From contig NZ_JASJOY010000022.1 of assembly GCF_031426985.1 (NCBI RefSeq), forward strand, positions 10,871 to 74,870: a DNA stretch of 64,000 nucleotides. Reading direction: 5' to 3'. The position numbers and the translations under genes were made by a program. The stretch is from Hydrogenophaga sp. GTDB lineage: Bacteria; Pseudomonadota; Gammaproteobacteria; Burkholderiales; Burkholderiaceae_C. Of the stretch, positions 36,528-62,817 are shown in pieces (positions within the stretch are counted from its first letter, which is position 1; each line of letters opens with the position of its first letter). A model generated the notes under the pieces. It was not told the DNA's origin, did no database searches, and was given only the letters and a program-made list of their open reading frames with translations.

Positions 36528-36542
36528 TGGCATGGAAGTTGT
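36528..36542 (+). promoter_or_regulatory. sigma54-like promoter of the aldehyde dehydrogenase gene, -12 GT variant
   Basis: TGGCATGGAAGTTGT. Confidence 0.6.
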
Positions 36543-36603: not shown

Positions 36604-38124
<1,521 letters not shown>

Positions 38125-38150
38125 TCTGAAAAGACCAGAAGCAGGGTTTG

Positions 38151-38181
38151 AGGGGAGGCGGGCAACCGCTTCCCCTTTTTT
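38151..38181 (+). terminator. intrinsic terminator-like hairpin after the aldehyde dehydrogenase gene
   Basis: AGGGGAGGCGG-GCAA-CCGCTTCCCCT followed by a T-run. Confidence 0.7.
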
Positions 38182-38205: not shown

Positions 38206-38586
38206 ATGGTTGAAAAAGTCGTGGCGACACCGGCAGCGCTGGAGTTGATCGAGTTCCTCAAGACCAAATACGGGCCCGGCCTGATGTTCCACCAGAGCGG
38301 CGGCTGCTGCGACAACAGCGCGGCCAACTGCTACCTGCTGGGTGAGATCACCATGGGCCAGGGCGACGTGTTGTTGGGCGTCATCGGCGGTTGCGAGTTC
38401 TACATGAGCAAGACGCAGTACGCGACCTGGCGCCACACGCAGCTCATCATCGACGTGATCGAAGGCCACGGCGGCACCTTCTCGCTCGAAGGGCCTGAGG
38501 GCAAGGCCTTCCACACCCGCTCGCGCGTGTTCACGCCCGAGGAAATGGCCCAGATCGAAGCCGCCGAGCAGGCCGCCGGGGCCTGA
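38206..38586 (+). CDS. DUF779 family protein
   Basis: FHQSGGCCD and FSLEGPEG..F.TRSR.F motifs; usual neighbour of this ALDH. Confidence 0.88.
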   Translation: MVEKVVATPAALELIEFLKTKYGPGLMFHQSGGCCDNSAANCYLLGEITMGQGDVLLGVIGGCEFYMSKTQYATWRHTQLIIDVIEGHGGTFSLEGPEGKAFHTRSRVFTPEEMAQIEAAEQAAGA

Positions 38587-38704
38587 GACAACGTGAGCGA
38601 AACCTGCACACCCGCGCGGGGTGCGCAGGCCGCCCGGGCACGCCCGACCGACTCACACCGCCCGTACAGCGGGCGGGTTGTTCCAGCACGGGACACTGGC
38701 CGCA

Positions 38705-38719
38705 TGGCATGGAACTTGT
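38705..38719 (+). promoter_or_regulatory. sigma54-like promoter of the TonB receptor gene, -12 GT variant
   Basis: TGGCATGGAACTTGT, 14/15 identical to the ALDH promoter. Confidence 0.6.
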
Positions 38720-38774: not shown

Positions 38775-40865
38775 ATGCCCCGACACCCCACGTTCACCCT
38801 GCGGCCCCTGCACGCCGCGCTCTGCATCCTTCTGGCCGGCCCCGCCGGGGCCCAGACCCTGCCGGACGTGGTGGTCAGCGCCAACCGGCAGGAACAGCAG
38901 AGCTTCGATGCGCCGGCCTCGATCCACGCCGTGGGGCAGGACGCGATCGAGGCCGCCGGCCCGCGCGTGAACCTGTCCGAATCGCTCAACCGGGTGCCGG
39001 GCATCACCGTGCTCAACCGCCAGAACTACGCGCAGGACCTGCAGTTGTCCATCCGCGGCTCCGGCGCCCGATCGCCCTTTGGCATCCGCGGTGCGCGCCT
39101 CATCGTCGATGGCATTCCCGCCACCATGCCCGACGGGCAGGGCCAAGCCTCGACCATCAGCCTGCCCTCGGCCCAGCGCATCGAGGTGCTGCGCGGCCCG
39201 CTGGCCCAGCTGTACGGCAACTCGGCCGGCGGCGTGGTGCAGGTGTTCACCGCCGACGGCCCCGAGCGGCCCGAGCTGCGCATGAGCGTGGACGCCGGCC
39301 CCGATGGCCTGAGCCGCTACGGCCTGCAGGCGGCGGGGCAGAGCGGAGCGGTCAACTACGTGGTGGATGTCAGCGATTTCCAGACCGACGGCTGGCGCGA
39401 GAACAGCGCGGCCGAGCGCCAGCACCTCAATGCCAAACTGCGCTGGGACGCGAGCGAGCAGACCCGCGTGACCGTCGTGGCCAATGTGTTTGACCAGCCG
39501 GTGTCGGGCGACCCGGTGGGGCTGACGCGCGGGCAGATGGAGGACGACCCGCGCCAGGCGGTGGCCAACGCCACGCTCTACCACGCCGGCAAGGACGTGG
39601 CGCAGCGCCAGCTGGGCCTGGTGCTGGACCACCGGCTGGGCGCCGACGCCAGCGTGATGGCCCGGGTGTACGCCGGGCAGCGCGACCTGGACAACCGGCT
39701 GTCCATCCCGCTGTTCGTGCAGACCGCGCCCACGGCGTCCGGCGGTGTCGTGCGGCTGGACCGGCAATACAGCGGCGTGGGCCTGCGCTACAGCCGCCGC
39801 TTGCCGGCGGGTGACGGGCAGGTGCTGTTCAGCCTGGGGCTGGACCACGAGCGCATGGGCGAGCACCGCCAGGGCTACATCAACAACCTTGGGGTGCAGG
39901 GCGATCTCAAGCGCGACGAGCAGGACAGCGTGCACAGCACGGGGGTGTATGCGCAGGCCGACTGGGCCATCAACGAGGACTGGAGCGCGCTGGCCGGCCT
40001 GCGCGCCAACCGGGTGGCGTTCCGGGTGAAAGACGCCTTCATCACCGGGGACAACCCGGACGACAGCGGCACGGCCTCGTTCAGCGCCACCAACCCGGTG
40101 CTGGGCATCACGCGCCACCTGAGCGCCGACACCAACCTCTACGCCAACATCGGCCGCGGTTTCGAGACCCCGACCTTCACCGAGCTGGCCTACCGCGCCG
40201 ACGGCAGTGGCCCCAACCTCGGGCTGGGATCGGCCAGCAGCACCCATGCGGAGCTGGGCCTGAAAACCCGGCTGACCGAACAGCAGCGGCTGGACGTGGC
40301 GCTGTTCAACATTGCCTCCCGCAACGAGATCGTGGTGGCGTCCAGCAGCGGGGGGCGCACCGTCTACGCCAACGCCGGCAGGACGCGTCGCAGCGGTGTT
40401 GAGGTCACGCACAGCGCGCAATGGACGCCCGAATGGCGCAGCCTGCTGGCGCTGTCCACGCTCAAGGCCCAGTTTGCCGAGGCCTTCACCAGCAGCGGCG
40501 GGGCCGTGGTGGCCGCGGGCAACCGCATCCCGGGCATCCTGGACCGCACGCTGTTCGCCGAACTGGCCTGGCAGCCGCGCGCCTGGGCCGGCTTCACCGG
40601 TGCGCTGGAGCTGGTGCACCGCGGCAGCATGGTGGTCAATGATCTCAACGAAGACCGCACCGATGCCGTCACGCTGTTCAACCTGCGCCTGGGCTGGCAG
40701 CAGACGGTCGGCGCCTGGACCCTGCGCGAGACCCTGCGGGTGGACAACCTGACCGACCGCGCCTACGTGGGTTCGGTGATCGTCAACGACGGCAACAAGC
40801 GCTACTTCGAGCCCGCGCCGGGGCGCCAGTGGGGCCTGGGCCTGACGGCGACGTACCGCTTCTGA
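38775..40865 (+). CDS. TonB-dependent receptor, YncD/PqqU-like
   Basis: Plug RVNLSESL..VPG...NRQNYAQDLQLSIRG.GAR..FG.RG..L.VDGIPATMPDGQGQ matches YncD as I recall it; GFETPT, FEPAPGR and terminal F; ATG 38775 follows GGAG. Confidence 0.82.
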   Translation: MPRHPTFTLRPLHAALCILLAGPAGAQTLPDVVVSANRQEQQSFDAPASIHAVGQDAIEAAGPRVNLSESLNRVPGITVLNRQNYAQDLQLSIRGSGARSPFGIRGARLIVDGIPATMPDGQGQASTISLPSAQRIEVLRGPLAQLYGNSAGGVVQVFTADGPERPELRMSVDAGPDGLSRYGLQAAGQSGAVNYVVDVSDFQTDGWRENSAAERQHLNAKLRWDASEQTRVTVVANVFDQPVSGDPVGLTRGQMEDDPRQAVANATLYHAGKDVAQRQLGLVLDHRLGADASVMARVYAGQRDLDNRLSIPLFVQTAPTASGGVVRLDRQYSGVGLRYSRRLPAGDGQVLFSLGLDHERMGEHRQGYINNLGVQGDLKRDEQDSVHSTGVYAQADWAINEDWSALAGLRANRVAFRVKDAFITGDNPDDSGTASFSATNPVLGITRHLSADTNLYANIGRGFETPTFTELAYRADGSGPNLGLGSASSTHAELGLKTRLTEQQRLDVALFNIASRNEIVVASSSGGRTVYANAGRTRRSGVEVTHSAQWTPEWRSLLALSTLKAQFAEAFTSSGGAVVAAGNRIPGILDRTLFAELAWQPRAWAGFTGALELVHRGSMVVNDLNEDRTDAVTLFNLRLGWQQTVGAWTLRETLRVDNLTDRAYVGSVIVNDGNKRYFEPAPGRQWGLGLTATYRF

Positions 40866-40877
40866 GTGTGAGGGGGC

Positions 40878-40990
40878 CGATCGCCCTGGGCCCGTCCTTC
40901 GACAAGCTCAGGACGATCGGGCCGTCTGCCCTTTGCGCCTTTTACCCTTCGACAAGCTTCGGAAAAGCCAAGCCCAGGTCGAAGGGGGTG
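40878..40990. repeat. degenerate CCTTCGACAAGCTCAGG-type palindromic repeat
   Basis: CCTTCGACAAGCT occurs twice with a GTCGAAGG counter-arm, between convergent genes. Confidence 0.55.
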
Positions 40991-41008
40991 AACCGGGCTG
41001 CGCCCGGT

Positions 41009-41758
41009 TCACAGCCCCGGTTTCTGCAGCGCGCGCAGCACCTCGGTCTGGAAGTCCGGCCCCTCGGCCGCGGCCATGAAGGCGTCGATGCGGCCATCAA
41101 ACCGCACCGTGCCCTGGTGCAGCAGCATCAGGCGGTCGGCGGTTTTGACTTCTTCGATCAGGTGCGTGGCCCAGAGCACGGCCAGGCCCTGGTCGCGGCA
41201 CAGGCCGCGCACCGTGTCCAGCAGCTGCTGGCGCGAGGCCGGGTCCAGGCCGACGGTGGCCTCGTCCATCAGCAGCACGCGCGGCGCGTGCAACAGGGCG
41301 CGCACCAGTTCCACCTTGCGCCGCGTGCCGCCCGAGAGGCTGCGCACCACGGCCTTGGCCTGGTCTTGCAGGCCGATGGCGGCGAGCTGTGTGGCGATGC
41401 GTTCGCGCGCCACCGGGCGCGGGAGGCCGTGCAGGTCGGTGTGGAACAGCAGGTTGGCCATGACGCTCAGGTCCAGGTCCAGCGCGCTTTGCTGGAACAC
41501 CACGCCCAGGCCGGCCAGGGCGCGCGCCGGGTGGCGCCGCATGTCCTGGCCCAGCACTTCGATGCTGCCCTGGTCGGGGGTGAACAGGCCGGTCAGCAGC
41601 TGCAGCAGGGTGGACTTGCCGGCCCCGTTGGGCCCCAGCAGGGCCAGCATCTCGCCGGCCTGCAGCGCCACGCTCACCCCTTTGAGCGCGGGTTTGCCGT
41701 TGTAGGCCTTGTGCAGATCGCGCGCGCTCAGCACGGCGGGGGTCGGGGCAAGGCTCAT
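41009..41758 (-). CDS. pedB: ABC ATP-binding subunit, PedB-like
   Basis: GPNGAGKST, VVFQQSALDLDLSV..NL, LSGG.RRKVE and ATH motifs; PQQ-ADH cluster context. Confidence 0.78.
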   Translation of the reverse strand: MSLAPTPAVLSARDLHKAYNGKPALKGVSVALQAGEMLALLGPNGAGKSTLLQLLTGLFTPDQGSIEVLGQDMRRHPARALAGLGVVFQQSALDLDLSVMANLLFHTDLHGLPRPVARERIATQLAAIGLQDQAKAVVRSLSGGTRRKVELVRALLHAPRVLLMDEATVGLDPASRQQLLDTVRGLCRDQGLAVLWATHLIEEVKTADRLMLLHQGTVRFDGRIDAFMAAAEGPDFQTEVLRALQKPGL

Positions 41759-42813
41759 GATTTGGGCGGGGCCAGCAGGTTCATGCGCGCCAGCAGTTGC
41801 TTCTCGCGTTCCACCATGGCCAGCACAGCCTGGCGGTAGTCGCGGGTGTTGAGGTAGTCGATGGACTGATCGTAGCGGGCCAGCGCGCCCGCGTGGCGTT
41901 CGCTGAACATGGCCTTGTGGAAGGCGTCGTGCAGTTTCTGGACCACCGCCGCCGGCGTGCCGGCCGGCGCGGCCAGGCCCCAGGGCGAGGTGTAGACCGC
42001 CTGCGGGTAGCCCAGCTCGCGCATGGTCGGCGCGGCGGGCCAGCGCGGGTTGCGCGCGGCGTTGAAGGTGGCCAGCAGGCGCATCTGGCCCTTGTCCACC
42101 CAGGGCGCAAAGCCGGTGGAGTTGACCCCGGCCATGATCTGCGCGCCCGCGATGGCCAGCATCTGGTCGGCCGTGCCTTTGTAGGGCACGTGCACGTATT
42201 TCACGTTGTGCTGCAGCAGGATCTCTTCCATCGCCAGGTGGGCGGTGGTGCCGATGCCGGTGGAACCCAGGGTCAGTTCGCCCGGGTGTCGCACGGCCCA
42301 GTCGACCAGGTCGTGGACCGACTTGAACGGGCTGCTGGCCGGCACCAGCAGGCCGAAGCTCACGCCCGAGACCTGCACGATGGGCGCGAGGTCGGTGACC
42401 GGGTCCCAGGGCACGTGGTTCATCAGCGCGTGGCGGTAGACCGTGATCGGCACCTGTCCGATGGTGTGGCCGTCGGGTTCGGCCGCCTTGAGCGCCGGCG
42501 CCACCAGCGTGCCGGCGGCGCCGGGTTTGTTGACCACCACCACCGTCTGGCCCAGCAGGGGTTCGGCTTCTTCGGCCAGGATGCGGATGGTCAGGTCCGT
42601 CTGGCCACCGGCGGGCCAGGGCACGATCAGCTGCACGGGTTTGCTGGGAAAGGGCGCCTGCGCCCGCGCGGCCGGCCAGACCGACCCCATGGCCAGGGCC
42701 GCCGCACCGCCCAGCCAATGCCGGCGCGAACAGCGGGTTGCACCGTCGTGCAACGCATCAAGGGTTTGCCCTGTGTCATTTTTGAACGCTGTGCGCGGCG
42801 GGGTGTGTGTCAT
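41755..42813 (-). CDS. Bug/TctC tripartite tricarboxylate-type substrate-binding protein
   Basis: FP.KP..LIVPWPAGG.TD, N.PGA.G, HVPYKG motifs; RRHW Tat-like signal; ATGA overlap with the ATPase gene. Confidence 0.85.
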   Translation of the reverse strand: MTHTPPRTAFKNDTGQTLDALHDGATRCSRRHWLGGAAALAMGSVWPAARAQAPFPSKPVQLIVPWPAGGQTDLTIRILAEEAEPLLGQTVVVVNKPGAAGTLVAPALKAAEPDGHTIGQVPITVYRHALMNHVPWDPVTDLAPIVQVSGVSFGLLVPASSPFKSVHDLVDWAVRHPGELTLGSTGIGTTAHLAMEEILLQHNVKYVHVPYKGTADQMLAIAGAQIMAGVNSTGFAPWVDKGQMRLLATFNAARNPRWPAAPTMRELGYPQAVYTSPWGLAAPAGTPAAVVQKLHDAFHKAMFSERHAGALARYDQSIDYLNTRDYRQAVLAMVEREKQLLARMNLLAPPKS

Positions 42814-43006: not shown

Positions 43007-44008
43007 ATGGCCCCAGGCGCCCCCCGTGCCTTTGCTGGCGTTCGTTGCACCGTTGCGGCCCTGTGTGCCGCCGCGGTCTGCTGGGGCTTCAGCCCGCAGG
43101 CCCTGGCCCAGGGCAAGGTCTACGTGTCCAGCGAGAAGGACCACAAGGTCTACGTGTTCAACGCGGCGGGCGAGCGCCAGGCCGCCATCGAGGTGTGCCA
43201 GCGTCCGCGCGACATGTCGTTCAGCCCCGATGGCTCGCAGATCTATGTGATCTGCGGCGACAGCAACGCCATGGGGGTGGTGAACCTGGCCAGTGGCCAG
43301 CTGACCGGCACCGTGCCGCTGGGCGAAAGCCCGGAGATGTTCGACCTCAGCCCCGACGGCAAGACCGCCTACGTGTCGGTCGAGGACGACAGCGTGCTGG
43401 CCGCCTACGACCTGGCCAGCAAGAAACCCTTGTTCGAGGTCAAGACCGGTGGCGAGCCCGAAGGGGTGCTGGTCACGCCCGACGGCAAGACGGCCTACGT
43501 CACGTCCGAAGTGGCCAACGTGGTCCACGTGATCGACCTGGGCACGAAGAAGGTGGTCAAGAACATCAAGGTCGGCAAGCGGCCGCGCCGCTTCGCGCTC
43601 GTGGCCGGTGGCGGCGAGCTGTGGGTGACCAACGAACTGGACGCCAGCGTGAGCGTGGTGGACACCCGGACCCACACCGAAAAGCAGAAGATCCGGTTCA
43701 CCGTCAAGGGCATGCGCGAGACCGACATCACGCCCGTGGGCATGACGCTCAGCCCCGACGGCAAGACGATGTGGGTGGGCCTGGGACGCGCCAACCACGT
43801 GGTCGAGGTGGACGTGGCCAGCAAGGCGGTCCGGCGCCAGGTGCTGGTCGGCAAACGCGCCTGGGGCATGGGCGTGTCGCCCGACGGCAAGACGCTGTAC
43901 GTGGCCAACGGCCTGTCGGACGACATGACGCTGATCGACACCGCGTCGGGCAAGGCGATCAGGACCGTGCCGGCTGGTCGCGTGCCACACACCATCCTCG
44001 TGAAATGA
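43007..44008 (+). CDS. YVTN beta-propeller protein of PQQ catabolism clusters, PedA1-like
   Basis: Signal peptide; repeated SPDGK..YV blades; ATG 43007 follows AGGAG. Confidence 0.85.
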   Translation: MAPGAPRAFAGVRCTVAALCAAAVCWGFSPQALAQGKVYVSSEKDHKVYVFNAAGERQAAIEVCQRPRDMSFSPDGSQIYVICGDSNAMGVVNLASGQLTGTVPLGESPEMFDLSPDGKTAYVSVEDDSVLAAYDLASKKPLFEVKTGGEPEGVLVTPDGKTAYVTSEVANVVHVIDLGTKKVVKNIKVGKRPRRFALVAGGGELWVTNELDASVSVVDTRTHTEKQKIRFTVKGMRETDITPVGMTLSPDGKTMWVGLGRANHVVEVDVASKAVRRQVLVGKRAWGMGVSPDGKTLYVANGLSDDMTLIDTASGKAIRTVPAGRVPHTILVK

Positions 44009-45300
44009 CCCCCCCCCGTTGCTTGCTCGCTGCGCGTAGCCGCATCCCCCCCCAGGGGGGCGCTCCCAGCGGCCCGGCCAAGCCGGTTCTGCGGGAGCCC
44101 TGGATGGGTCTGTGGCGCTCTGCCGGTTTGGCGTTGCTGTGTGTGCTTGGTTGGTTTTCTCAGCCGGCATTGGCTGCCACGAAAGTCACCATCGCAGTGG
44201 TGTCGCTCGACGGCGATCCGCGCCACGCGCCGCGGCGGCTGGAGAAGGCCTACCCCGGTCACCCGACCGGGCGCGCCATCGATGGCGTGAAGCTGGCGGC
44301 CGAGGATTCGGCCTTCGAGCTGGACGCGGCCGGCATCAGCCTGGTGGTCAAGGACGTGGTGCTGCCGAACGTGGCCGGCCTGGCGAAAGCGCTGGCCGAT
44401 CTGAAAGCGGCCAAGGTGCAGCACATCGTGGCCGACCTGCCGGCGCCCGAGCTGCGCGCGCTGGTGCAGGCCGCACCCGCCGCGCTGGGTGGCGCCATCG
44501 TGCTCAACGCTGCGGCCGATGACGACGCGCTGCGCGGCGCCCAGTGCGCCGCCCACCTGCTGCACACCGTGCCCAGCCGCGCCATGCTCAGCGACGCGCT
44601 GGCGCAGTACCTGGCGGCGCGCAACTGGCGCAAGGCGCTGGTGCTGCAGGGGCCGCTGCCGGGCGATGCGCTGATGGCCGAGGCCTTCAACCGCTCGGCC
44701 AAACGCTACGGCGTCAAGGCCACGGCCAGCAAACCTTTCAAGCTCACCGGCGACCCGCGCGAGCGCGACCTGGGCAATGTGCGCCTGCTCACCGGCAGCG
44801 ACCGCGAGCACGAGGTGGTGGCGGTGCTCGACAGCGACGGCGAGTTCGCCCGCACCGTGCCCTACGCGACGCAGCTGCCGCGGCCGGTGGTGGGCGCCAA
44901 CGGCCTGGTGGCCGTGCCCTGGCATCCGCTGTGGGAGCGCAACGGCGGCCCACAGCTCTCACGCCGTTTTGCCAAGGGGGCCTTGCGGCCGATGACGGGC
45001 CACGACTGGGCCGCCTGGATGGCCGGGCGGGCCGTGGCCACCGTGCTGGCCGAGCTGCCCAAGGCGCCCATCGCGCAGCAGCTCAAGGCCCTGCGCGGCG
45101 GGCCGGTGGCGGTGGACGGTTTCAAGGGGCCGCGCCTGAGCTTCCGCGCCTGGGACGGCCAGTTGCGCCAGCCCATCCTGCTCAGCCATGTGGATGGCGT
45201 GGTCGGCGTGGCCCCGCTGGACGGCGTGCTGCACCCGAAAGAAATCATGGACACCCTGGGCGTGGACGAAGCGGAGAGCGCATGCAAGCAACGACCCTGA
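44005..45300 (+). CDS. branched-chain-type ABC substrate-binding protein, PedA2-like
   Basis: G..LA..D, HT.PS.AM.SDAL.QYL..R.W and SFR.WDGQLRQP motifs; alternative start ATG 44104 after the repeat. Confidence 0.8.
   Translation: MTPPRCLLAARSRIPPQGGAPSGPAKPVLREPWMGLWRSAGLALLCVLGWFSQPALAATKVTIAVVSLDGDPRHAPRRLEKAYPGHPTGRAIDGVKLAAEDSAFELDAAGISLVVKDVVLPNVAGLAKALADLKAAKVQHIVADLPAPELRALVQAAPAALGGAIVLNAAADDDALRGAQCAAHLLHTVPSRAMLSDALAQYLAARNWRKALVLQGPLPGDALMAEAFNRSAKRYGVKATASKPFKLTGDPRERDLGNVRLLTGSDREHEVVAVLDSDGEFARTVPYATQLPRPVVGANGLVAVPWHPLWERNGGPQLSRRFAKGALRPMTGHDWAAWMAGRAVATVLAELPKAPIAQQLKALRGGPVAVDGFKGPRLSFRAWDGQLRQPILLSHVDGVVGVAPLDGVLHPKEIMDTLGVDEAESACKQRP
44009..44093. repeat. REP-like repeat, subfamily A
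   Basis: C-run, CCCCCCCCAGGGGGG, then GCGGCCCGGCCAAGCCGGTTC. Confidence 0.8.
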
Positions 45301-46118
45301 ACCAGCCGCCGGCCCTGTTGCCGCACCTGCTGCGCGCGCTGCGTGCGGTGGTCGGGCGCGAGATCGGCCGCTTCCTGCGTCAGCCCACGCGCCTGGGCTC
45401 GGCGCTGGTGCGGCCGCTGCTGTGGTTCGTGGTGTTCTCGGCCGGTTTCCACAACGTGTTCGGCGTGGCGATCGCGCCGCCCTACGAAACCTACGTCGAA
45501 TACAAGGAATACATGGTGCCCGGCCTGCTGGGCATGGTCGCCTTGTTCAACGGGATGCAGAGCTCGCTGTCCATGGTCTACGACCGCGAGATGGGCGTGA
45601 TGCGCCTGCTGCTGACCGCGCCCCTGGCGCGCGGCTGGCTGCTGGCCTTCAAGCTGCTGGCGGGCACCGCGCTGTCGCTGCTGCAGATGGTGGTGTTTCT
45701 GCTGATCGCCTGGGCCTTCGGGGTCGAGGTGCCGCTGGCCCACCTGCCGGCGGCCCTGCTGGCCATGGTGTGTGGCGCGGTGATGCTGGCCTCGGTCGGG
45801 CTGGTGCTCTCGGTCTACGTCAAGCAGCTGGAGAACTTCGCCGGCACCATGAACTTCGTGATCTTCCCGATGTTCTTCATCAGCCCGGCGCTGTACCCGC
45901 TGTGGAAGCTGGAAGAGTCGGGCGCCTGGTGGCTGCTCAAGCTCGCGCAGGCCAACCCCTTCACCCACGCGGTGGAGGCGATCCGTTTTGCACTGTACGG
46001 GCAGTTCAACGGCACGGCCTGGGCGGTGGTGCTGGGCTGCACGGTGGTGTTCTTTCTGGCCGCGCTGTGGGGTTACGACCCGCAACGCGGCTGGGTCAGC
46101 AAGAAGCCCGGCGGCTGA
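45282..46118 (+). CDS. pedC: ABC-2 type permease, PedC-like
   Basis: RPLLWF.VF.AGF, YMVPGL.GM..LFNGMQSSLSMVYDREMG and ENFAG.MNFVIFP motifs. Confidence 0.82.
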   Translation: MQATTLNQPPALLPHLLRALRAVVGREIGRFLRQPTRLGSALVRPLLWFVVFSAGFHNVFGVAIAPPYETYVEYKEYMVPGLLGMVALFNGMQSSLSMVYDREMGVMRLLLTAPLARGWLLAFKLLAGTALSLLQMVVFLLIAWAFGVEVPLAHLPAALLAMVCGAVMLASVGLVLSVYVKQLENFAGTMNFVIFPMFFISPALYPLWKLEESGAWWLLKLAQANPFTHAVEAIRFALYGQFNGTAWAVVLGCTVVFFLAALWGYDPQRGWVSKKPGG

Positions 46119-48404: not shown

Positions 48405-50126
48405 GTGAAACGCACTCTATTGAGCCTTTTGGTCATGGCCGCCACGGCCCACGTTGGCGCCCAGGGCGTGACCGACGCGATGATCGCCAACGACGCCGCC
48501 ACGCCCGACAACGTCCTGAGCTGGGGCCTGGGCACGCAAGGCCAGCGCCATTCGACGCTGACCGGCATCAACGAAAAAACCATCAGCAAGCTGGTGCCCG
48601 TGTGGTCCATGTCCTTCGGTGGTGAAAAGCAGCGCGGCCAGCAAAGCCAGCCGCTGGTGAACAACGGCAAGATGTTCGTCACCGCGTCCTACTCGCGCAT
48701 CTACGCGGTGGACACCAAGACCGGCAAGAAGCTCTGGAAGTACGAGCACCGCCTGCCCGAAGGCATCATGCCCTGCTGCGACGTGATCAACCGCGGCGCC
48801 GCCCTGTACGACAACCTGGTCATCTTCGGCACGCTGGACGCCCAGCTGGTCGCCCTGGACCAGAACACCGGCAAGGTGGTCTGGCGCGAGAAGATCGACG
48901 ACTACTCTGCGGGCTACAGCTACACCGCCGCCCCCCTGATCGCCGAAGGCCTGCTGCTGACCGGTGTGTCCGGTGGTGAGTTCGGTGTGGTCGGTCGCGT
49001 GGAAGCGCGCGACCCCAAGACCGGCAAGATGGTCTGGTCCCGCCCCGTGGTCGAAGGCCACATGGGCTACAAGGACGGCAAGGAAAACGGCATCACCGGC
49101 ACCACCAACGCCACCTGGCCGGGCGAGACCTGGAAGACCGGCGGCGCCGCCACCTGGCTGGGCGGCACCTACGACGCCAAGACCGGCCTGGCCTACTTCG
49201 GCACCGGCAACCCGGGCCCGTGGAACAGCCACGTGCGCAAGGGCGACAACCTCTATTCCGCCTCGACCGTCGCCATCGACGTGAAGACCGGCCAGATCAA
49301 GTGGCACTACCAGACCACGCCCAACGACGGCTGGGACTACGACGGCGTGAACGAGTTCATCACCTTCGACATGGACGGCAAGCGCGTCGGCGCCAAGGCC
49401 GACCGCAACGGCTTCTTCTACGTGATGGACGCCGAAAACGGCAAGCTGCTCAACGCATTCCCCTTCGTCAAGAAGGTGACCTGGGCCACCGGCATCGACC
49501 TCAAGACCGGCCGCCCGAACTACGACCCGGCCAACCGCCCGGGCGACCCGACCGCCGCCGGTGGCGACGGTGCCAAGGGCAAGTCCGTGTTCTCGGCCCC
49601 GGGCTTCCTGGGTGGCAAGAACCAGATGCCCATGGCCTACAGCCCCAAGACCGGTCTGTTCTACGTGCCCACCAACGAATGGGGCATGGAGATCTGGAAC
49701 GAGCCCATCACCTACAAGAAGGGCGCGGCCTACCTGGGCGCCGGCTTCACCATCAAGCCGCTGTTCGACGACCACATCGGCTCGCTGCGCGCGATCGATC
49801 CCAAGACCGGCAAGGTGGCCTGGGAAGTCAAGAACGAGGCCCCGCTCTGGGGTGGCGTGCTGACCGCGGGTGACCTGGTGTTCTGGGGCACGCCCGAGGG
49901 CTATCTGAAGGCTGCCGACGCCAAGACCGGCAAGGTGGTGTGGCAGTTCCAGACCGGCTCCGGCGTGGTCGCGCCTCCCATCACCTGGACCGAAGGCGGC
50001 GAGCAGTACGTCTCCGTCGTGTCCGGCTGGGGCGGTGCGGTTCCCCTGTGGGGCGGTGAAGTGGCCAAGAAGGTCAACTTCCTGGAACAGGGCGGCTCGG
50101 TCTGGACCTTCAAGCTCATGAAGTGA
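48405..50126 (+). CDS. pedH: PQQ-dependent alcohol dehydrogenase, lanthanide-type (PedH/ExaF-like)
   Basis: Vicinal PCCD disulfide, GGEFG, GNPGPW and WDYDGVNE (extra Asp); GTG 48405 follows AGGAG. Confidence 0.9.
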
Positions 50127-53195: not shown

Positions 53196-53206
53196 GGGGG
53201 ATGGTC

Positions 53207-53381: not shown

Positions 53382-53385
53382 TGTT

Positions 53386-53997: not shown

Positions 53998-54733
53998 CGG
54001 GCGTTCCTCCGGGTGCGGCGTCGGTGGCCAGTGACAGCGCCAGCGCATCGGCCACCAGGGCGTCGGCAAAACGGTCCAGCCGCATCAGCTGCAGACCCAG
54101 CAGGATGTTGCCGGTCAGGCCGGTGACGGTGGTCAGCAGCGCGATGCCCAGACCACCGGTCAGGCTCTTGAGCAGCTGGGCGCTCTGGCTGGGGTCGAAG
54201 CTGTCCATCTGGCCCAGCTGCAGCGCGAGGATGGAAAAGCCGATCACCTTGCCCAGCAGGCCGAGCTTGAGCTGTATGCCGTTGAGCCACCAGGCCATTT
54301 CGTGCGCCCCGTGGGCGCGCTCGCCCAGCACCAGCAGCCACGAGGCACGGTCGGCCCCGGGCTGCGCCGTGCCGTGCAGGAATTCACCGCTCCAGCTGTC
54401 GGCGTGTGGGCCTGCGCGTTGCACCTGGTCGAGCGCGGTGCGCTGGCGGCCAAGCACCCAGGCGCGGTGGCCGACCCAGCCCGAACAGCCGACGAACAGC
54501 AGCACGATGACGATGGTCAGGCGCGTCGGGTCGGCCTCGATCAGCCGGTGCCAGGCGCCCGCCTGCCACAGCAGCAGCGCCGCAAACCCCAGCAGACCCA
54601 TGAAGGCCAGCCAGAGCAGGAACAGGCCCTGCTCGGCGCGCTCGATGTTGAACGGGGGGTGTGCGCTGCCGGGCAGGCGCCGCACCAGCAAGGCCCCGAG
54701 CATGCGGTGGGTGGGGGCGCTGGTGGCGTTCAT
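53972..54733 (-). CDS. MotA/TolQ/ExbB-family proton-channel protein
   Basis: LGLLGKVIGF and G.GIALLTTVTGL...LL motifs; ATG 54733 overlaps the pqqE stop (ATGA). Confidence 0.8.
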   Translation of the reverse strand: MNATSAPTHRMLGALLVRRLPGSAHPPFNIERAEQGLFLLWLAFMGLLGFAALLLWQAGAWHRLIEADPTRLTIVIVLLFVGCSGWVGHRAWVLGRQRTALDQVQRAGPHADSWSGEFLHGTAQPGADRASWLLVLGERAHGAHEMAWWLNGIQLKLGLLGKVIGFSILALQLGQMDSFDPSQSAQLLKSLTGGLGIALLTTVTGLTGNILLGLQLMRLDRFADALVADALALSLATDAAPGGTPDGDRPSGP

Positions 54734-55908
54734 GCGGTTCCCGGCGCAGAGCCGTCCGCCGCTGTGGCACGTGAAGGTTCGGGATGCCGGTGCCGCGATT
54801 CCGCGTCGCTGCGGAACACGATGGGGATGTGGCGGTTCCTGGACGCGTTCTTCACCACCGCCACCACCTTCTGATGGTGGGCCGACTTGCTGCACACCGG
54901 GTCGGTCTCGGCGGCGTCGCCGGTGAGCAGAAAGGCCTGGCAGCGACAGCCGCCAAAGTCCTTGTGGCGCTCGTCGCAGCTGCGGCAGGTGGGTTTCATC
55001 CACGCGTCGCCGCGGTAGGCGTTGAAGGCGTTGCTGCGCTGCCAGATGTCGGCAATCGGCACGTCCTTGACGTTGGGCAGCGACAGCCCGGGCAGGTCGC
55101 GCGCGTTGTGGCAGGGCATGGCCAGGCCGTCGGGCGCGATGGACAGGAACACAGCGCCCCAGCCATTCATGCAGGCCTTGGGGCGCTCTTCAAAATAGTC
55201 GGGCACGACGAACAGCACGCGGCATTTCTGCCCCGTGGGGTTGGCGTCCTGCTCGGCGCGGAAGGCGTTCACTTCGGCCTCGGCGATTTGGAGTTCTTCG
55301 CGCGTGGGCATGAGGTGGTCGCGGTTGATCCAGGCCCAGCCGTAGTACTGGGTGTTGGCCAGTTCGAGGTACTCGGCCTCCAGCGCCACGGCCATGTCGA
55401 TGATCTTGCGCACGTGCGGCAGGTTGTGCCGGTGCAGCACGCAGTTCATCACCATCGGCCAGTCGTGCTGCTTGATCAGCCGGGCCACGCGCTGCTTGAG
55501 CTCGAAGGTCTTGGTGTGGCTGAGGAAGTCGTTGAGTTCCTTGGTCGAGTCCTGGAACGAGAGCTGCACGTGGTCGAGCCCGGCGTCCTTGAGCTTCTGC
55601 GCGCGGGCGGGTGTGAGGCCCACGCCCGAGGTGATGAGGTTGGTGTAGTAGCCCAGCCGGTGCGCCTCCTGCACGAGTTCTTCGAGGTCGTCGCGCAGCA
55701 TCGGCTCGCCACCCGAAAAGCCCAGCTGCGCGGCACCGAGCTTGCGCGCCTGCGTCATCACGTCCACCCACTGCGCGGTGCTCAGCTCGTCCGTCACCTG
55801 GGCGTGCAGCGTGGGGTTGTAGCAAAACACGCAGTGCAGCGGGCACTTGTAGGTCAGCTCCGCCAGCAGCCACAGCGGCGGGCCGGCGGGGTCACTCGAT
55901 CCAGCCAC
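54730..55908 (-). CDS. pqqE: PQQ biosynthesis radical SAM enzyme
   Basis: WLLAELTYKCPLHCVFCYNP, GGEP..R.DL, ANTQYYGWA and SPASM CM.GWG/C..C...GGCRCQA motifs; probable GTG start at 55908. Confidence 0.95.
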   Translation of the reverse strand: MAGSSDPAGPPLWLLAELTYKCPLHCVFCYNPTLHAQVTDELSTAQWVDVMTQARKLGAAQLGFSGGEPMLRDDLEELVQEAHRLGYYTNLITSGVGLTPARAQKLKDAGLDHVQLSFQDSTKELNDFLSHTKTFELKQRVARLIKQHDWPMVMNCVLHRHNLPHVRKIIDMAVALEAEYLELANTQYYGWAWINRDHLMPTREELQIAEAEVNAFRAEQDANPTGQKCRVLFVVPDYFEERPKACMNGWGAVFLSIAPDGLAMPCHNARDLPGLSLPNVKDVPIADIWQRSNAFNAYRGDAWMKPTCRSCDERHKDFGGCRCQAFLLTGDAAETDPVCSKSAHHQKVVAVVKNASRNRHIPIVFRSDAESRHRHPEPSRATAADGSAPGTA

Positions 55909-56155
55909 GGCGTTGGCCTTCTTCCAGGAGCGATCGCACGTCGGGCTCGATGCCTTTGGCCTGGAACGCGGCCTCGAGCTCGGTGACGATGCCGGGCAGG
56001 GTGCGCGTGCCATCGCAGCATTTGAGGATTTCGGCCGCGCTCGGGTTGAGCTGCACCATGCCTTCGGGGTAGAGCAGCACCCAGCGGTCCTGCGCCGGCT
56101 CGAACTGCAGGCGGAACTTGCGCGAGAGCTTGGGTGTGAGCGGCAGCGGGTTCAT
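55892..56155 (-). CDS. pqqD: PqqA chaperone
   Basis: RLQFEPAQ..WVLLYPEGMV.LN.SA.EIL motif. Confidence 0.93.
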   Translation of the reverse strand: MNPLPLTPKLSRKFRLQFEPAQDRWVLLYPEGMVQLNPSAAEILKCCDGTRTLPGIVTELEAAFQAKGIEPDVRSLLEEGQRRGWIE

Positions 56156-56178
56156 GTCAATGCGTGACAAGTTGAGTG

Positions 56179-56207
56179 AGGGGAAGACGCGCAGCGGGGC
56201 AGGGGGG
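56179..56207. repeat. truncated subfamily A repeat between pqqC and pqqD
   Basis: AGGGGAAGACGCGCAGCGGGGCAGGGGGG. Confidence 0.75.
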
Positions 56208-56210
56208 CGT

Positions 56211-56945
56211 TCATCCCTGACATGCCTTCTCGATCGCGTCCAGCATGGTCCAGAGGATGTCCAGCTTGAACTGCAGGATGTCCAGCGCGTGGTGCTGTTG
56301 CGGGCGGGTCTGGAAATGGGCCAGCGTCACGCGCAGGCCGTGTTCCACATCGCGGCTGGCCAGCGGGATGCGGCTGCGGAAGTAGGCCAGGCCGTCGGCC
56401 TCGATCCAGGGGTAGTGGGTCGGCCAGGTGGCCAGGCGGTCCTTGTGGATCTGCGGCGCGAACATCTCGGTCAGCGACGAGCACACGGCTTCCTGCCAGG
56501 GCGCCTTGGCCGCGAAGTTCACGTACGCGTCGCAGGCGAAGCGCACCGCGGGCACCACGTGCTGCAGCGACCACAGCTCCTCGCGCGAGATGCCCACGGC
56601 CTCGCCCAGGCGCGTCCAGGCCTCGATGCCGCCGGCGGCGGCGCCCTGGTGGTTGCCGTGGCCGTCGTGGTCGAGGATGCGTTCGATCCACAGGCGGCGG
56701 TGCTCGCGGTCGGGCATGTTGGCCAGGATGGCCGCGTCCTTGCGCGGGATGCAGATCTGGTAATAAAAGCGGTTGGCCACCCAGCAGCGGATCTCGTCAG
56801 GCGTGCAACCACCCGAGTTCATGCGCACGTTGAACGGGTGGTGGATGTGGTAACTGCGGCCCTTGTCGCGCAGCTGGGCTTCGAACTCTTGCGCGTTCCA
56901 GGCGGGCAGGTGGCCGTCGGTGCGGATGGATTGGGCGATTTCCAA
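56211..56945 (-). CDS. pqqC: pyrroloquinoline-quinone synthase
   Basis: [26 protein letters not shown] and [12 protein letters not shown] motifs; TTG 56945 follows AGGA. Confidence 0.93.
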
Positions 56946-56999
56946 GATCAGGTTCCTACAAACGCGAATGTTGAAGAAGTGACTTGCCCAGCACACACC

Positions 57000-57069
57000 G
57001 TGGAACCGGCTTTGCCGGGCCACTGGTGTGGTCCCCCTGGAGGGGGAAGACGCGGAGCGGCGCAGGGGG
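57000..57069. repeat. REP-like repeat, subfamily A, between pqqB and pqqC
   Basis: GTGGAACCGGCTTTGCCGGGCCAC...AGGGGGAAGACGCGGAGCGGCGCAGGGGG. Confidence 0.9.
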
Positions 57070-57987
57070 TCATATCTCAATGCTCATGCCGTCGTGGGCG
57101 ACCTCGATGCCGTGCCGCGTCAGCAGCGCGCGCTCGTCGGAGTCTTCCACCAGCATGGGGTTGGTGTTGTTGATGTGGATGAGCACCTTGCGCACGCCGG
57201 GGGGCAGCCGGTCCAGCTGTTCGATCATCCCGCCCGGGCCGCTTTGCGGCAGGTGGCCCATGTCGAGCGCGGCCTTGGTCGAGAGGCCCAGGCGCTGCAT
57301 TTCGTCGTGCGTCCAGAAGGTGCCGTCGACCAGCACCACAGCGCAGCCGCTCATGAGCGCGATCAGCTCGGGCGTGACCTCGGCCAGCCCCGGTGCGTAG
57401 AAGGCCTTCGCGCCGGTGGCGGGGTTGGTGATCAGCAGGCCGATGTTGTCGCCCGGGCGCGGGTTGCCGCGAAAGGGTGAATACGGTGGCGGCTTGGACG
57501 AGAGCGACACCGTCTGCAGCTGCAGGCCGGGCAGGGCGGGGATGTGCACCGCGCTGCCGTCGATCGGCAGTTCCTGTCGGGCCACCCCGCAGTAGTGCGA
57601 GAGGATGCCGGTGATGGGAAAACCGCTGGAGATGTCGGAGAACACCTCGGGTGTGGCCAGCAGCGGCAGCGGCGTCTTGCGCTCGCGCAGCATCAGCAGG
57701 CCGGTCACGTGGTCGATCTGCGCGTCCATCAGCAGCACGGCGGCGATGCCGCTGTCGCGGATGGCGCGGGCCGGCTGCAGCGCGTGCGTGCGCTGGATCT
57801 GGGTGAGGATGTCGGGCGAGGCGTTGACCAGCAGCCAGTCGATGCCGTCGGCGCTCAGTGCGATGGACGACTGTGTGCGCGGCGTGGCGCGCAGCGTGCC
57901 ACGCCGCACGCCGTCGCAATTGGGGCAGTTGCAGTTCCACTGAGGGAAACCGCCGCCGGCCGATGAACCCAGAACGCGGATGCGCAT
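57070..57987 (-). CDS. pqqB: PQQ biosynthesis protein B
   Basis: [33 protein letters not shown] and HINNTNP motifs. Confidence 0.96.
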
Positions 57988-58009
57988 GGCAGTGTTTCAG
58001 TCGTTCAAG

Positions 58010-58044
58010 AAAAAAAGGCGCACGGGTGGAACACGCGTGCGCCT
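58010..58044 (-). terminator. hairpin plus T-run between pqqA and pqqB
   Basis: AGGCGCACG...CGTGCGCCT followed by a T-run on the minus strand. Confidence 0.75.
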
Positions 58045-58062
58045 GGGGCCTGTCTGCGCCGA

Positions 58063-58137
58063 TCAGCGGTTGGCGATGTACATCGTGATCTCAAAACCAA
58101 AACGCAAATCGGTGAAAGCCGGGGTGGTCCATTGCAT
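58063..58137 (-). CDS. pqqA: PQQ precursor peptide (missed by the ORF track)
   Basis: [24 protein letters not shown] with E-x3-Y core; AGGAG site; second in-frame ATG at 58140. Confidence 0.97.
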
Positions 58138-58163
58138 CATTCGTCTCCTGAAGTGGGGTTGGC

Positions 58164-62462: not shown

Positions 62463-62817
62463 GTTGTCTCCAGGGTCCGGGGGTAGACCCACCCAGTAAT
62501 CCGGCGCCCACGACGCTTCGCGCATCGGATCGGACAGGGACTCGGGATCGGTATTGTTGTCTCTTTGACTCATGCAATTGTCTTCATATCTGTGGCGGGC
62601 ATCAACACAAGGGTCTGCCCGGATGCAACAGCCTGTTCCGCTACGGTGCACAGACGAGATAGCAAGTAGTCGGCCATAGGGAAAGACCCTTGGTTTTGTG
62701 CCCGGTGCAAGGCTGTACCGGGCACTGTGACAATGCGCGCGGCGCAATTGGTGCAATTTGGAGCACTGCGCGGCGGTGCAGCGGTGTTGCGGTGTGGCTG
62801 TGCGGCACGGGCGGCGG

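What the first reader, a model, noticed from the sequence alone, without database searches (positions are those of the whole stretch)
38775..40865. PqqU/YncD-like importer in an organism that makes its own PQQ
Seen: a YncD-like plug sequence, a sigma54-like promoter shared with the ALDH gene, and full pqqABCDE 15 kb away. Established: E. coli YncD (PqqU) imports PQQ, and PQQ chelates lanthanides in vitro. Inference: the receptor recaptures secreted PQQ, possibly as a Ln-PQQ complex. That would make PQQ a lanthanide shuttle feeding the PedA1A2BC-like system and the Ln-type dehydrogenase.
Basis: partly seen in the sequence, partly recalled or inferred. Interest (0 to 1): 0.65.

Follow-up and report, generated by a model that had tools for sequence, protein, structure and literature searches.

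The report
PQQ importer PqqU in ethanol-oxidation island
The gene is a genuine copy of the outer-membrane PQQ importer PqqU, sitting in an alcohol-oxidation gene island of a PQQ-producing Hydrogenophaga; this combination is already documented, and its binding-site residues argue against the proposed lanthanide-PQQ shuttle.

Summary
Window 38775-40865(+) encodes a 696-aa TonB-dependent transporter. Its only strong family match is PqqU: 613 bits end to end against 150 for the next family, and 42% identity to E. coli PqqU. All five published PQQ-contact residues are kept (F102, K273, R303, R365, R528).

It lies in a 27-kb island with exaC-DUF779, PedA1A2BC-like genes, the genome's only eight-bladed PQQ alcohol dehydrogenase (PedH type, D-Y-D), cytochrome c, pqqABCDE and an AcoR-like sigma-54 activator. 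pqqU has its own -24/-12 promoter, nearly identical to exaC's. That element is conserved in 18 of 20 orthologous loci.

Most likely the protein imports metal-free PQQ and is co-induced with the quinoprotein, for recapture and scavenging.

The lanthanide-PQQ idea is not supported:
- The residue equivalent to E. coli K274 is lysine, whose amine occupies PQQ's metal site. Metal co-transport was proposed only for Glu variants.
- The same PqqU clade also sits beside Ca-type dehydrogenases.
- About 27 of 43 PedH-bearing congeners lack it.

PqqU in PQQ producers, Hydrogenophaga entries and pqqU-pqq synteny in Burkholderiales are all published (Munder 2025). Only the regulatory context is new. No expression data could be obtained.

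The parts
36528..36542 (+). sigma-54 type -24/-12 element TGGCATGGAAGTTGT upstream of exaC
   Evidence: one of only 2 genome-wide hits to the exact core; sequence
36604..38124 (+). exaC, NAD-dependent acetaldehyde dehydrogenase
   Evidence: NF050026 ExaC, 953 bits, above the cut-off of 900; Pfam Aldedh
38150..38177 (+). intrinsic-terminator-like hairpin (12-bp stem plus T run) just after exaC
38206..38586 (+). DUF779 protein, the usual partner of exaC
   Evidence: PF05610, 133 bits. It lies upstream of pqqU in 12 of 20 orthologous loci: exaC-DUF779 together in 9, and DUF779 or exaC alone in 3 cut or short loci
38679..38696 (+). degenerate copy (TGTTCCAGCACGGGACAC) of a conserved inverted repeat, TGTTCC-ATTYC-TGAACA. 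The repeat lies about 12 nt upstream of the -24 element in the aligned orthologous loci
   Evidence: This window's copy differs from the 18-nt consensus at 5 positions
38705..38719 (+). sigma-54 type -24/-12 promoter element TGGCATGGAACTTGT of pqqU, 56 nt before the ATG
   Evidence: Conserved as TGGCAYGGAACTTGT in 18 of 20 type-A loci of the genus and in one other genus; absent from 9 type-B loci
38775..40865 (+). pqqU, TonB-dependent outer-membrane PQQ transporter (696 aa). Signal peptide residues 1-26, TonB box 31-36, plug 45-154, barrel to 696. PQQ-contact residues F102, K273, R303, R365, R528
40988..41012 (.). perfect 10-bp hairpin (GTGAACCGGG-ctgcg-CCCGGTTCAC) between the convergent pqqU and pedB-like genes. 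It is a likely transcript end, though it has no T run
   Evidence: sequence read; not found by the terminator scan
41009..41740 (-). PedB-like ABC ATPase of the PQQ-alcohol-dehydrogenase system
   Evidence: TIGR03864, 313 bits, above the cut-off of 302
41755..42813 (-). TctC/Bug-family periplasmic binding protein (start approximate)
   Evidence: PF03401, 226 bits
42916..42930 (+). sigma-54 type element TGGCACCTTTTTTGC before the pedA2-like operon. A CATTTTTGAAC element lies at 42777
43007..46118 (+). PedA2-like beta-propeller (43007-44008), PedA1-like binding protein (44104-45300) and PedC-like permease (45282-46118)
   Evidence: TIGR03866 286 bits (cut-off 287.3), TIGR03863 421 bits, TIGR03861 349 bits
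46142..48096 (+). SoxYZ-like quinoprotein-associated carrier (46142-46939) and quinoprotein relay zinc metallohydrolase 1 (47110-48096)
   Evidence: TIGR04557 208 bits, TIGR04558 406 bits
48276..48290 (+). sigma-54 type element TGGCACAGAAGTTGC before the dehydrogenase. A CATTTCTGAAC element lies at 48138
   Evidence: The -24/-12 element is conserved in 12 of 12 congeners and the upstream element in 11 of 12
48405..50126 (+). PedH-type, lanthanide-signature (D-Y-D) PQQ alcohol dehydrogenase. It is the only eight-bladed quinoprotein found in the genome
50271..50591 (+). small c-type cytochrome (CxxCH), the presumed electron acceptor
   Evidence: sequence; weak NF045773 hit
54730..58140 (-). pqqABCDE: pqqA 58063-58140, pqqB 57070-57987, pqqC 56211-57080, pqqD starting at 56155, pqqE 54730-56013
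   Evidence: TIGR02109 510 bits; PqqC and PqqB Pfam hits; PqqA and PqqD read
58222..58236 (-). sigma-54 type element TGGCATCGATATTGC upstream of pqqA
60420..62486 (-). AcoR-like sigma-54 enhancer-binding protein (GAF-PAS-AAA+-HTH_8). It is the candidate activator of the island (start approximate)

Best explanation
The gene encodes a PqqU-type TonB-dependent transporter. It binds free, metal-less PQQ outside the cell and moves it into the periplasm, using the cell's Ton system for energy. There the PQQ loads the periplasmic quinoproteins.

In this Hydrogenophaga lineage the gene has its own sigma-54 promoter inside an alcohol-oxidation and PQQ island. It is probably switched on by an AcoR-like activator, together with exaC, the PedH-type dehydrogenase, the PedA1A2C-like genes and pqqABCDE. 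Uptake capacity for PQQ would then rise exactly when apo-dehydrogenase is being made. The cell would recapture PQQ that leaks through its own outer membrane and take PQQ made by neighbours.

Shown here: family membership, the binding-residue signature, the promoter element and its conservation, and the synteny.

Inferred: PQQ as the substrate in this organism, the identity of the activator, induction by alcohols, and the recapture role.
For: Identity:
- The PqqU HMM is by far the best model: 613 bits end to end against 150 bits for the next.
- E is about 1e-144 to the solved E. coli PqqU structures.
- The protein is 42% identical to E. coli PqqU, with Y99->F (accepted by Munder et al.) and K274, R304, R365 and R536 conserved (criteria from PMC12124388).
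- In the tree, E. coli PqqU nests among the family's homologues. The genome's four other TonB-dependent receptors (BtuB-like, two of TOL_0244 type, one Fiu-like) are remote outgroups.
- In a phylum-wide sample the protein falls in the 560-820-bit tier, where every sequence correctly extracted and aligned has F-K-R-R-R.

Context:
- Clade A (70-80% identical) lies directly after exaC and/or DUF779 in 12 of 20 genus loci. It lies 13-21 kb from pqqE in all 13 producers where both genes are on one contig.
- Clade B lies directly after another quinoprotein gene.
- G269 is 99% complete. It has the PedH orthologue about 7 kb from clade-A pqqU but no pqqC or pqqE, so its enzyme must depend on imported PQQ.

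Regulation:
- The -24/-12 element is conserved in 18 of 20 orthologous loci while the flanks diverge.
- Five of 35 genome-wide loose sigma-54 matches lie in this island, each ahead of an operon.
- A CATTTYTGAAC-type element is conserved next to the pqqU promoter in the aligned orthologues, and upstream of the PedH promoter in 11 of 12 congeners.
- An AcoR-like activator gene is in the island.
- In Ralstonia solanacearum, growth on ethanol needs rpoN1, and an AcoR-type activator gene sits beside exaC (PMC4676750).
- There is no Fur box before pqqU.

Precedent: PqqU imports PQQ in E. coli, and in the PQQ producer P. aeruginosa (PA2289).
Against:
- The score is below NCBIfam's equivalog cut-off of 1200 bits, which is tuned to enterobacterial PqqU.
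- In this particular genome the conserved inverted repeat next to the promoter is degenerate (5 of 18 positions differ). Regulation here may therefore be weaker than in relatives.
- A shared upstream activator site for all five promoters was not found.
- In P. aeruginosa, pqqU is reported to be constitutive, so inducible control is an inference from sequence only.
- The DNA-binding end of rpoN is missing from the draft assembly. Its first three quarters lie at the end of contig C150.
Confidence: 0.75

Rival explanations
1. One reading: the receptor takes up PQQ as a lanthanide-PQQ complex. Secreted PQQ would then act as a lanthanophore, feeding the PedA1A2BC-like system and the PedH-type enzyme.
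For: - The gene sits in an island with a Ln-signature dehydrogenase, which is the genome's only eight-bladed PQQ-ADH, and with PedA1A2BC-like genes.
- No LutH-like receptor is recognisable among the genome's five TonB-dependent receptors.
- PQQ binds lanthanides in vitro and has been floated as a possible lanthanophore (PMC8969499).
- Metal co-transport by some PqqU variants has been proposed (PMC12124388).
- The outer-membrane route for lanthanides is also unresolved in P. putida (PMC12997753).
Against: - K273 (E. coli K274) is lysine. In the PqqU-PQQ structure its amine occupies PQQ's metal-coordination site. The co-transport proposal applies to Glu substitutions only.
- All 58 aligned family members have Lys. 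Glu and Gln variants exist, but in a different, more distant tier that is 30-35% identical.
- The pocket keeps three arginines suited to an anionic ligand.
- Clade-A pqqU also lies near Ca-type (D-F-S) dehydrogenases in G205 and G248. It also occurs in G219, where no PQQ-ADH was found.
- About 27 of 43 congeners with the PedH orthologue lack clade-A pqqU.
- Lys-type PqqU of E. coli and P. aeruginosa imports PQQ without any lanthanide.
Confidence: 0.06
2. It is a LutH-like lanthanide or lanthanophore receptor that merely resembles PqqU. Such receptors have been mis-annotated as YncD/PqqU.
For: - bioRxiv 10.64898/2026.07.10.737718 reports that Ln-importing TonB-dependent transporters have PqqU as their top PDB hit and often neighbour pqq genes.
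- The window's gene neighbours a Ln-type dehydrogenase and pqq genes.
Against: - The same paper states that those transporters lack the conserved PQQ-binding residues. This protein has all five.
- It scores end to end on the PqqU model, and E. coli PqqU nests among its relatives.
- No small periplasmic lanthanide-cargo gene with a signal peptide lies next to it. The 126-aa neighbour is the DUF779 partner of exaC.
- I could not fetch a reference LutH sequence, so this comparison rests on the paper's statement.
Confidence: 0.03
3. It is a siderophore or other metal-chelate receptor, as the automatic label 'iron complex outermembrane receptor protein' on its homologues suggests.
For: Generic JGI names on homologues; weak matches to siderophore-receptor models of 150 bits or less.
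Against: - The PqqU model scores four times higher than any siderophore model.
- There is no Fur box: the best match is 7 of 19, at the bottom of the background distribution.
- There is no FecR-type N-terminal signalling extension.
- The promoter is sigma-54 type and the gene sits in an alcohol-oxidation island.
- E. coli YncD was shown structurally to be unlikely to carry an iron substrate (PMC7193533 abstract).
Confidence: 0.04

Closest known systems
E. coli PqqU (YncD, b1451; PDB 6V81 and 9C4O)
   Same: Same architecture: TonB box, plug and 22-strand-type barrel domains. 42% identity over the full length. All five PQQ-contact positions are conserved (Y99 as F; K274, R304, R365, R536). There is a single copy per genome.
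   Different: - E. coli does not make PQQ, and its pqqU stands apart from quinoprotein genes.
- Here the host makes PQQ, and the gene lies in a PedH/pqq island behind a sigma-54 type promoter.
- The protein belongs to a separate subclade (clade A) from the one that holds E. coli PqqU.
Pseudomonas aeruginosa PqqU (PA2289), bioRxiv 10.64898/2026.04.27.721047
   Same: It is a PqqU in a PQQ-producing bacterium that oxidises ethanol with a PQQ dehydrogenase. It was shown experimentally to be the PQQ importer.
   Different: - It is reported as constitutive, unaffected by PQQ, carbon source or iron, whereas here a conserved sigma-54 promoter and island context suggest co-induction with the ethanol system.
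- The P. aeruginosa dehydrogenase ExaA is Ca-dependent, whereas here the enzyme is PedH type.
- I did not align PA2289 itself.
PqqU homologues of Burkholderiales in Munder et al. 2025 (PMC12124388)
   Same: - The paper's dataset already lists Hydrogenophaga PqqU proteins, one of them modelled with PQQ.
- It reports that 23% of PqqU encoders also make PQQ.
- It shows four Burkholderiales genomes with pqqU syntenic to the pqq operon (fig. S11).
   Different: As far as I could read, the paper does not describe the exaC-DUF779-pqqU arrangement, the sigma-54 promoter, or the two clades each tied to a different quinoprotein gene.
LutH-type lanthanide TonB-dependent receptors (Methylorubrum extorquens and relatives)
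   Same: They are outer-membrane TonB-dependent transporters related to PqqU, and are often found near pqq or lanthanide-enzyme genes.
   Different: They are reported to lack the PQQ-binding residues, which this protein has. They import lanthanide rather than PQQ.
Glu274 variants of PqqU (proposed metal-PQQ co-transporters)
   Same: Same family, with the same F/R/R/R pocket residues.
   Different: They carry Glu (or Gln) where this protein has Lys. In my sample they are only 30-35% identical to it (L079-L085).

Membership tests
PqqU (TonB-dependent PQQ transporter) | An aromatic residue at E. coli position 99 (Y, F or W), which stacks on PQQ | tested here: met
   F102 in the window protein (MAFFT alignment with E. 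coli PqqU; HMMER alignment). Criterion from PMC12124388.
PqqU (TonB-dependent PQQ transporter) | Arg at E. coli positions 304 and 365 | tested here: met
   R303 and R365. Both are invariant in all 58 aligned relatives.
PqqU (TonB-dependent PQQ transporter) | The semi-conserved K274 and R536 | tested here: met
   K273 and R528.
PqqU (TonB-dependent PQQ transporter) | Full-length similarity to characterised PqqU that exceeds similarity to any other TonB-dependent receptor family | tested here: met
   NF041535 scores 613 bits over 2-675 of 676, against 150 bits for the next model. This is below the curated equivalog cut-off of 1200. PDB matches at E about 1e-144.
PqqU (TonB-dependent PQQ transporter) | Groups with characterised PqqU in a tree, apart from other receptors | tested here: met
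   In the quick IQ-TREE tree, E. coli PqqU nests inside the set of homologues, and the four other receptors of the genome are long-branch outgroups. The careful tree search did not finish, and no LutH reference was available.
PqqU (TonB-dependent PQQ transporter) | Binds and imports PQQ | not testable with these tools
   This needs ITC or growth complementation.
TonB-dependent transporter | Signal peptide, TonB box, plug domain and beta-barrel domain | tested here: met
   PF07715 and PF00593. Signal peptide and the DVVVSA box read.
Metal-co-transporting PqqU variant (proposed) | Glu in place of K274, creating a metal site together with PQQ | tested here: not met
   Lys at this position in the window protein and in all 58 aligned relatives. 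Glu and Gln occur only in distant homologues.
LutH-type lanthanide receptor | Absence of the PQQ-binding residues, and clustering with proven Ln importers | tested here: not met
   The residues are present. Clustering with reference LutH could not be tested because no reference sequence was obtainable. Criterion from bioRxiv 10.64898/2026.07.10.737718.
Sigma-54 dependent promoter | GG at -24 and GC (or a close variant) at -12 with fixed spacing, suitably placed before the gene, plus a cognate activator and rpoN in the genome | tested here: inconclusive
   - TGGCAT-N5-TTGT lies 56 nt before the ATG. The -12 element is TTGT, not TTGC.
- The element is conserved in 18 of 20 orthologous loci.
- An AcoR-like activator is in the island and the genome has 14 such activators.
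- rpoN is present but cut by a contig end.
- No transcript data are available.

The most novel reading that the evidence does not exclude
Despite the lysine, this island-borne clade of PqqU might carry PQQ with a bound lanthanide, or hand PQQ and lanthanide on together. That would make PQQ the missing outer-membrane lanthanide shuttle in bacteria that, like this one and P. putida, have PedH and PedA1A2BC but no LutH-type receptor.
Probability: 0.05. Interest if true: 0.75.

Novelty: new member of a known kind. Interest (0 to 1): 0.27.

Why it matters
PQQ leaks from producers and behaves as a public good. A producer that raises its importer together with its quinoprotein and its PQQ synthesis genes would be keeping that good to itself. 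If the sigma-54 control is real, it contrasts with the constitutive pqqU reported for P. aeruginosa.

The two Hydrogenophaga clades each sit next to a different quinoprotein gene, and some relatives keep the dehydrogenase and pqqU but have no pqq genes. Together they give a natural series for studying the balance between making and scavenging PQQ.

For lanthanide biology the result is mostly negative. This receptor is not a good candidate for the missing outer-membrane lanthanide route.

Tried and rejected
- A search for one upstream activator site shared by all five sigma-54 promoters gave nothing at 8 nt or longer. Only the pqqU-orthologue, pedA2 and PedH promoters share a CATTTYTGAAC-type element. 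The exaC and pqqA promoters have different repeats.
- I tested whether the ExbB/ExbD-like module after pqqE, noted earlier in the scan, is a private motor for PqqU. Its ExbD-like gene is in 37 of 81 congeners and follows the PedH/pqq island, including genomes without any pqqU. I therefore rejected it as a PqqU-specific partner.
- The Pfam Sigma54_DBD search and an RpoN-box scan found nothing in the assembly. The reason is a contig end: the first three quarters of rpoN lie at C150:20952-22211.
- The careful IQ-TREE run did not finish in time, so I used the quick tree.
- Two fetched loci (L070, L074) gave wrong-strand longest ORFs and were ignored.
- phmmer alone missed most other TonB-dependent receptors, so I used a profile.
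- I did not run a structure prediction. At E about 1e-144 to solved PqqU it would add little, and the tool returns no coordinates for checking pocket geometry.
- I could not fetch a reference LutH or PA2289 sequence for direct comparison.
Full report
WHAT IS THERE

The window is contig C22:10871-74870 of a 5.06-Mb draft genome in 250 contigs. The genome is about 68% G+C. Names on the closest protein matches place it in Hydrogenophaga, GTDB family Burkholderiaceae_B.

The ORF runs from the ATG at 38775 to the stop at 40865 and encodes 696 aa. A GGAGA Shine-Dalgarno sequence precedes the ATG. The protein has a signal peptide (cleavage after AGA at residue 26), a TonB box (DVVVSA, residues 31-36), a Plug domain and a TonB-dependent barrel.

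IS IT PqqU?

- NCBIfam's PqqU model covers it end to end at 613 bits. The next model, for generic siderophore receptors, reaches 150 bits.
- The only PDB relatives at E <= 1e-10 are the two E. coli YncD/PqqU entries, at E about 1e-144.
- Munder et al. 2025 (PMC12124388) define PqqU by three PQQ-contact residues: Y/F/W99, R304 and R365. K274 and R536 are semi-conserved.
- I fetched E. coli pqqU (L064) and aligned it. The window protein has F102, K273, R303, R365 and R528 at those five positions and is 42% identical overall.
- Fifty-six homologues from the family and genus carry the same signature. The only exception is three with Asn at the last position.
- In a tree, E. coli PqqU nests inside this set. 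The genome's four other TonB-dependent receptors are remote outgroups. They are a BtuB-like receptor, two of the TOL_0244 family and one Fiu-like siderophore receptor.
- In a sample of 401 genomes from the phylum, hits to the PqqU model fall into tiers. Enterobacterial PqqU scores above 1200 bits. A broad tier at 560-820 bits includes the window, and every sequence from it that I correctly extracted and aligned has F-K-R-R-R. A tier at 300-490 bits contains the K274Q and K274E variants. A tier near 140 bits lacks the signature.

The protein is a PqqU.

A RIVAL THAT HAD TO BE EXCLUDED

A 2026 preprint (10.64898/2026.07.10.737718) reports that LutH-like lanthanide receptors are often mislabelled YncD/PqqU. 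They have PqqU as their top PDB hit and often sit near pqq genes, but they lack the PQQ-binding residues. This protein has those residues, so it is not of that kind. I could not fetch a LutH reference sequence, so the comparison rests on the paper's statement.

SURROUNDINGS

From about 36.5 to 63.4 kb the window is one PQQ and alcohol-oxidation island:
- exaC (above the NCBIfam cut-off) and DUF779
- pqqU
- on the opposite strand, a TctC-family binding protein and a PedB-like ATPase
- a PedA2-like propeller, a PedA1-like binding protein and a PedC-like permease
- a SoxYZ-like carrier and a relay metallohydrolase
- a PQQ alcohol dehydrogenase
- a small cytochrome c
- four unnamed envelope genes
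- pqqEDCBA on the minus strand
- an alpha/beta hydrolase and an AcoR-like GAF-PAS-AAA+-HTH activator

The dehydrogenase has the D-Y-D lanthanide signature (WDYDG). It matches PedH (6zcw/6zcv, 805 bits) better than Ca-dependent ExaA (1flg, 668 bits). It is the only eight-bladed quinoprotein found in the genome. Two six-bladed GSDH-type enzymes are also present. The first 33 kb of the window hold unrelated housekeeping genes.

PROMOTERS

The element TGGCATGGAA(G/C)TTGT occurs exactly twice in the genome: 62 nt before the exaC ATG and 56 nt before the pqqU ATG. The promoter is therefore duplicated in kind, not physically shared. A strong terminator-like hairpin follows exaC.

With a looser sigma-54 pattern, 5 of 35 genome-wide matches fall in this island. 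About 0.4 would be expected from its share of the genome. Each lies ahead of an operon and in the right orientation: exaC, pqqU, pedA2-A1-C, the dehydrogenase and pqqA.

Phylogenetic footprinting supports the pqqU promoter. TGGCAYGGAACTTGT is present upstream of the orthologue in 18 of 20 genus loci and in one other genus, while the flanks diverge. It is absent from nine loci of the other PqqU clade.

About 12 nt upstream of the -24 element lies a second conserved block, the inverted repeat TGTTCC-ATTYC-TGAACA, in the aligned orthologues. Its core, CATTTYTGAAC, occurs only five times in this genome. Two of those five are upstream of the pedA2 and dehydrogenase promoters. The core is conserved upstream of the PedH orthologue's sigma-54 promoter in 11 of 12 congeners.

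Three caveats apply:
- In this genome the copy next to pqqU is degenerate (5 of 18 positions differ).
- The -12 element reads TTGT rather than TTGC.
- No transcript data could be obtained.

rpoN looked absent at first. It is in fact cut by a contig end. All 12 sampled congeners have it, and the genome has 14 sigma-54 activators.

In another member of Burkholderiales, Ralstonia solanacearum, growth on ethanol needs rpoN1 and an AcoR-type activator gene sits beside exaC (PMC4676750). There is no Fur box before pqqU.

DISTRIBUTION

In 201 genomes of the family, 108 have a PqqU-like gene. In 81 genomes of the genus there are two clades.

Clade A is the window's clade, at 70-80% identity.
- It is in 22 sampled congeners plus this genome.
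- It lies directly after exaC and/or DUF779 in 12 of 20 loci.
- It lies 13-21 kb from pqqE in all 13 producers where both genes are on one contig.
- pqqE was found in 15 of the 22.
- Three near-complete genomes (G269, G205, G219) have clade A but neither pqqE nor pqqC.
- G269 keeps a D-Y-D PedH orthologue about 7 kb from pqqU, so its dehydrogenase must run on imported PQQ.
- G205 and G248 have clade A near a dehydrogenase that is 51% identical and carries D-F-S, the Ca-type signature.
- G219 has clade A, and no PQQ-ADH was found there at E <= 1e-100.

Clade B is 42-46% identical and includes the branch nearest E. coli PqqU.
- It lies directly after a different quinoprotein gene with a D-Y/F-T motif.
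- It is found mostly in genomes without pqqE.

The PedH orthologue (84-98% identical) is in about 42 congeners, or about 43 genomes with this one. About 27 of them lack clade-A pqqU. These counts are descriptive, because related genomes are not independent.

MECHANISM

The best-supported reading has three parts:
- It is a Ton-energised importer of free PQQ.
- It is transcribed from its own sigma-54 promoter, as part of the alcohol-oxidation regulon.
- It raises the periplasmic PQQ supply while apo-dehydrogenase is being made, both by recapturing leaked PQQ and by taking PQQ from neighbours.

Membership, signature, promoter conservation and synteny are shown here. Substrate, inducer, activator and physiological role are inferred.

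THE LANTHANIDE-PQQ IDEA

Points in its favour:
- the island context
- the absence of a LutH-like receptor among only five TonB-dependent receptors
- PQQ's known lanthanide binding
- published speculation that PQQ might act as a lanthanophore (PMC8969499)

Points against:
- Munder et al. place the K274 amine exactly where PQQ holds its metal. They propose metal co-transport only where Glu replaces it. This protein and all 58 aligned relatives keep Lys.
- Glu and Gln variants occur only in a distant tier.
- Clade A is not tied to lanthanide-type enzymes, and most PedH islands do without it.

I put this reading at about 5-6%.

NOVELTY

The following are already published:
- PqqU in PQQ producers: 23% of encoders in Munder et al., and an experimental demonstration for P. 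aeruginosa PA2289.
- Hydrogenophaga entries in Munder's dataset.
- pqqU-pqq synteny in four Burkholderiales genomes.
- The notion of metal co-transport.

What this analysis adds is modest:
- the exaC-DUF779-pqqU arrangement
- a conserved sigma-54 promoter and adjacent repeat, suggesting co-induction, in contrast to the constitutive pqqU reported for P. aeruginosa
- two clades, each wired to a different quinoprotein gene
- natural PQQ auxotrophs that retain the dehydrogenase and the importer

The finding is a sound annotation of ordinary interest.

EARLIER SCAN NOTES

- A note on an ExbB/ExbD-like module after pqqE led me to test whether it is a private motor for PqqU. It follows the PedH/pqq island, not pqqU.
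- The notes on the lanthanide signature and on the split PedB/TctC pair agree with what I found.

Noticed in passing
L056-L063 (genus loci), for example L057:60-3528: A second PqqU clade in the same genus is 42-46% identical to the window's protein and includes the branch nearest E. coli PqqU. It lies directly downstream of a different PQQ dehydrogenase gene with a D-Y/F-T motif. It has no sigma-54 element upstream and occurs mostly in genomes without pqqE.
   Followed up: partly
L079-L085 (genomes G348, G534, G537, G549, G435, G459): Distant PqqU homologues, 30-35% identical to the window's, carry Gln (L079-L081) or Glu (L083-L085) at the K274 position while keeping F/R/R/R. These are the variants for which metal co-transport has been proposed. 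I did not examine their neighbourhoods.
   Followed up: no
L091 (G269:C3:38500-50200): A 99%-complete congener keeps the D-Y-D PedH orthologue and clade-A pqqU about 7 kb apart, but neither pqqC nor pqqE was found. It appears to be a natural PQQ auxotroph with a lanthanide-type enzyme.
   Followed up: partly
G000:C150:20952-22211 (outside the window): rpoN is cut by the end of contig C150. Only residues equivalent to 17-427 of a congener's 561 are assembled, so domain searches for the DNA-binding end report the gene as absent.
   Followed up: yes
window 48138, 42777 and 62857; L095-L105: A CATTTYTGAAC-type element lies about 120-170 nt upstream of the PedH-type dehydrogenase's sigma-54 promoter. 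It is conserved in 11 of 12 congeners. Related copies lie before the pedA2-like operon and in the divergent region next to the AcoR-like activator gene. It is a candidate activator binding site.
   Followed up: partly
window 51874-54733: The ExbD-like gene of the four-gene envelope module after pqqE is in 37 of 81 congeners and always accompanies the PedH/pqq island, including genomes without any pqqU. It is therefore not a PqqU-specific energiser.
   Followed up: partly
window about 44020-44100, 46950-47100, 52580-52680, 53200-53390 and 56160-56210: A repeated intergenic element recurs between genes of the island. In one frame it translates as ...[27 protein letters not shown]..., and it inflates ORF calls. 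It also produced false tblastn hits to the N-terminus of the pqqC ORF in other genomes.
   Followed up: no
whole genome G000: Only five TonB-dependent receptors were found, and none is LutH-like. The sole eight-bladed PQQ alcohol dehydrogenase is the lanthanide type, with no Ca-type paralogue. How lanthanides cross the outer membrane in this organism is therefore open.
   Followed up: partly
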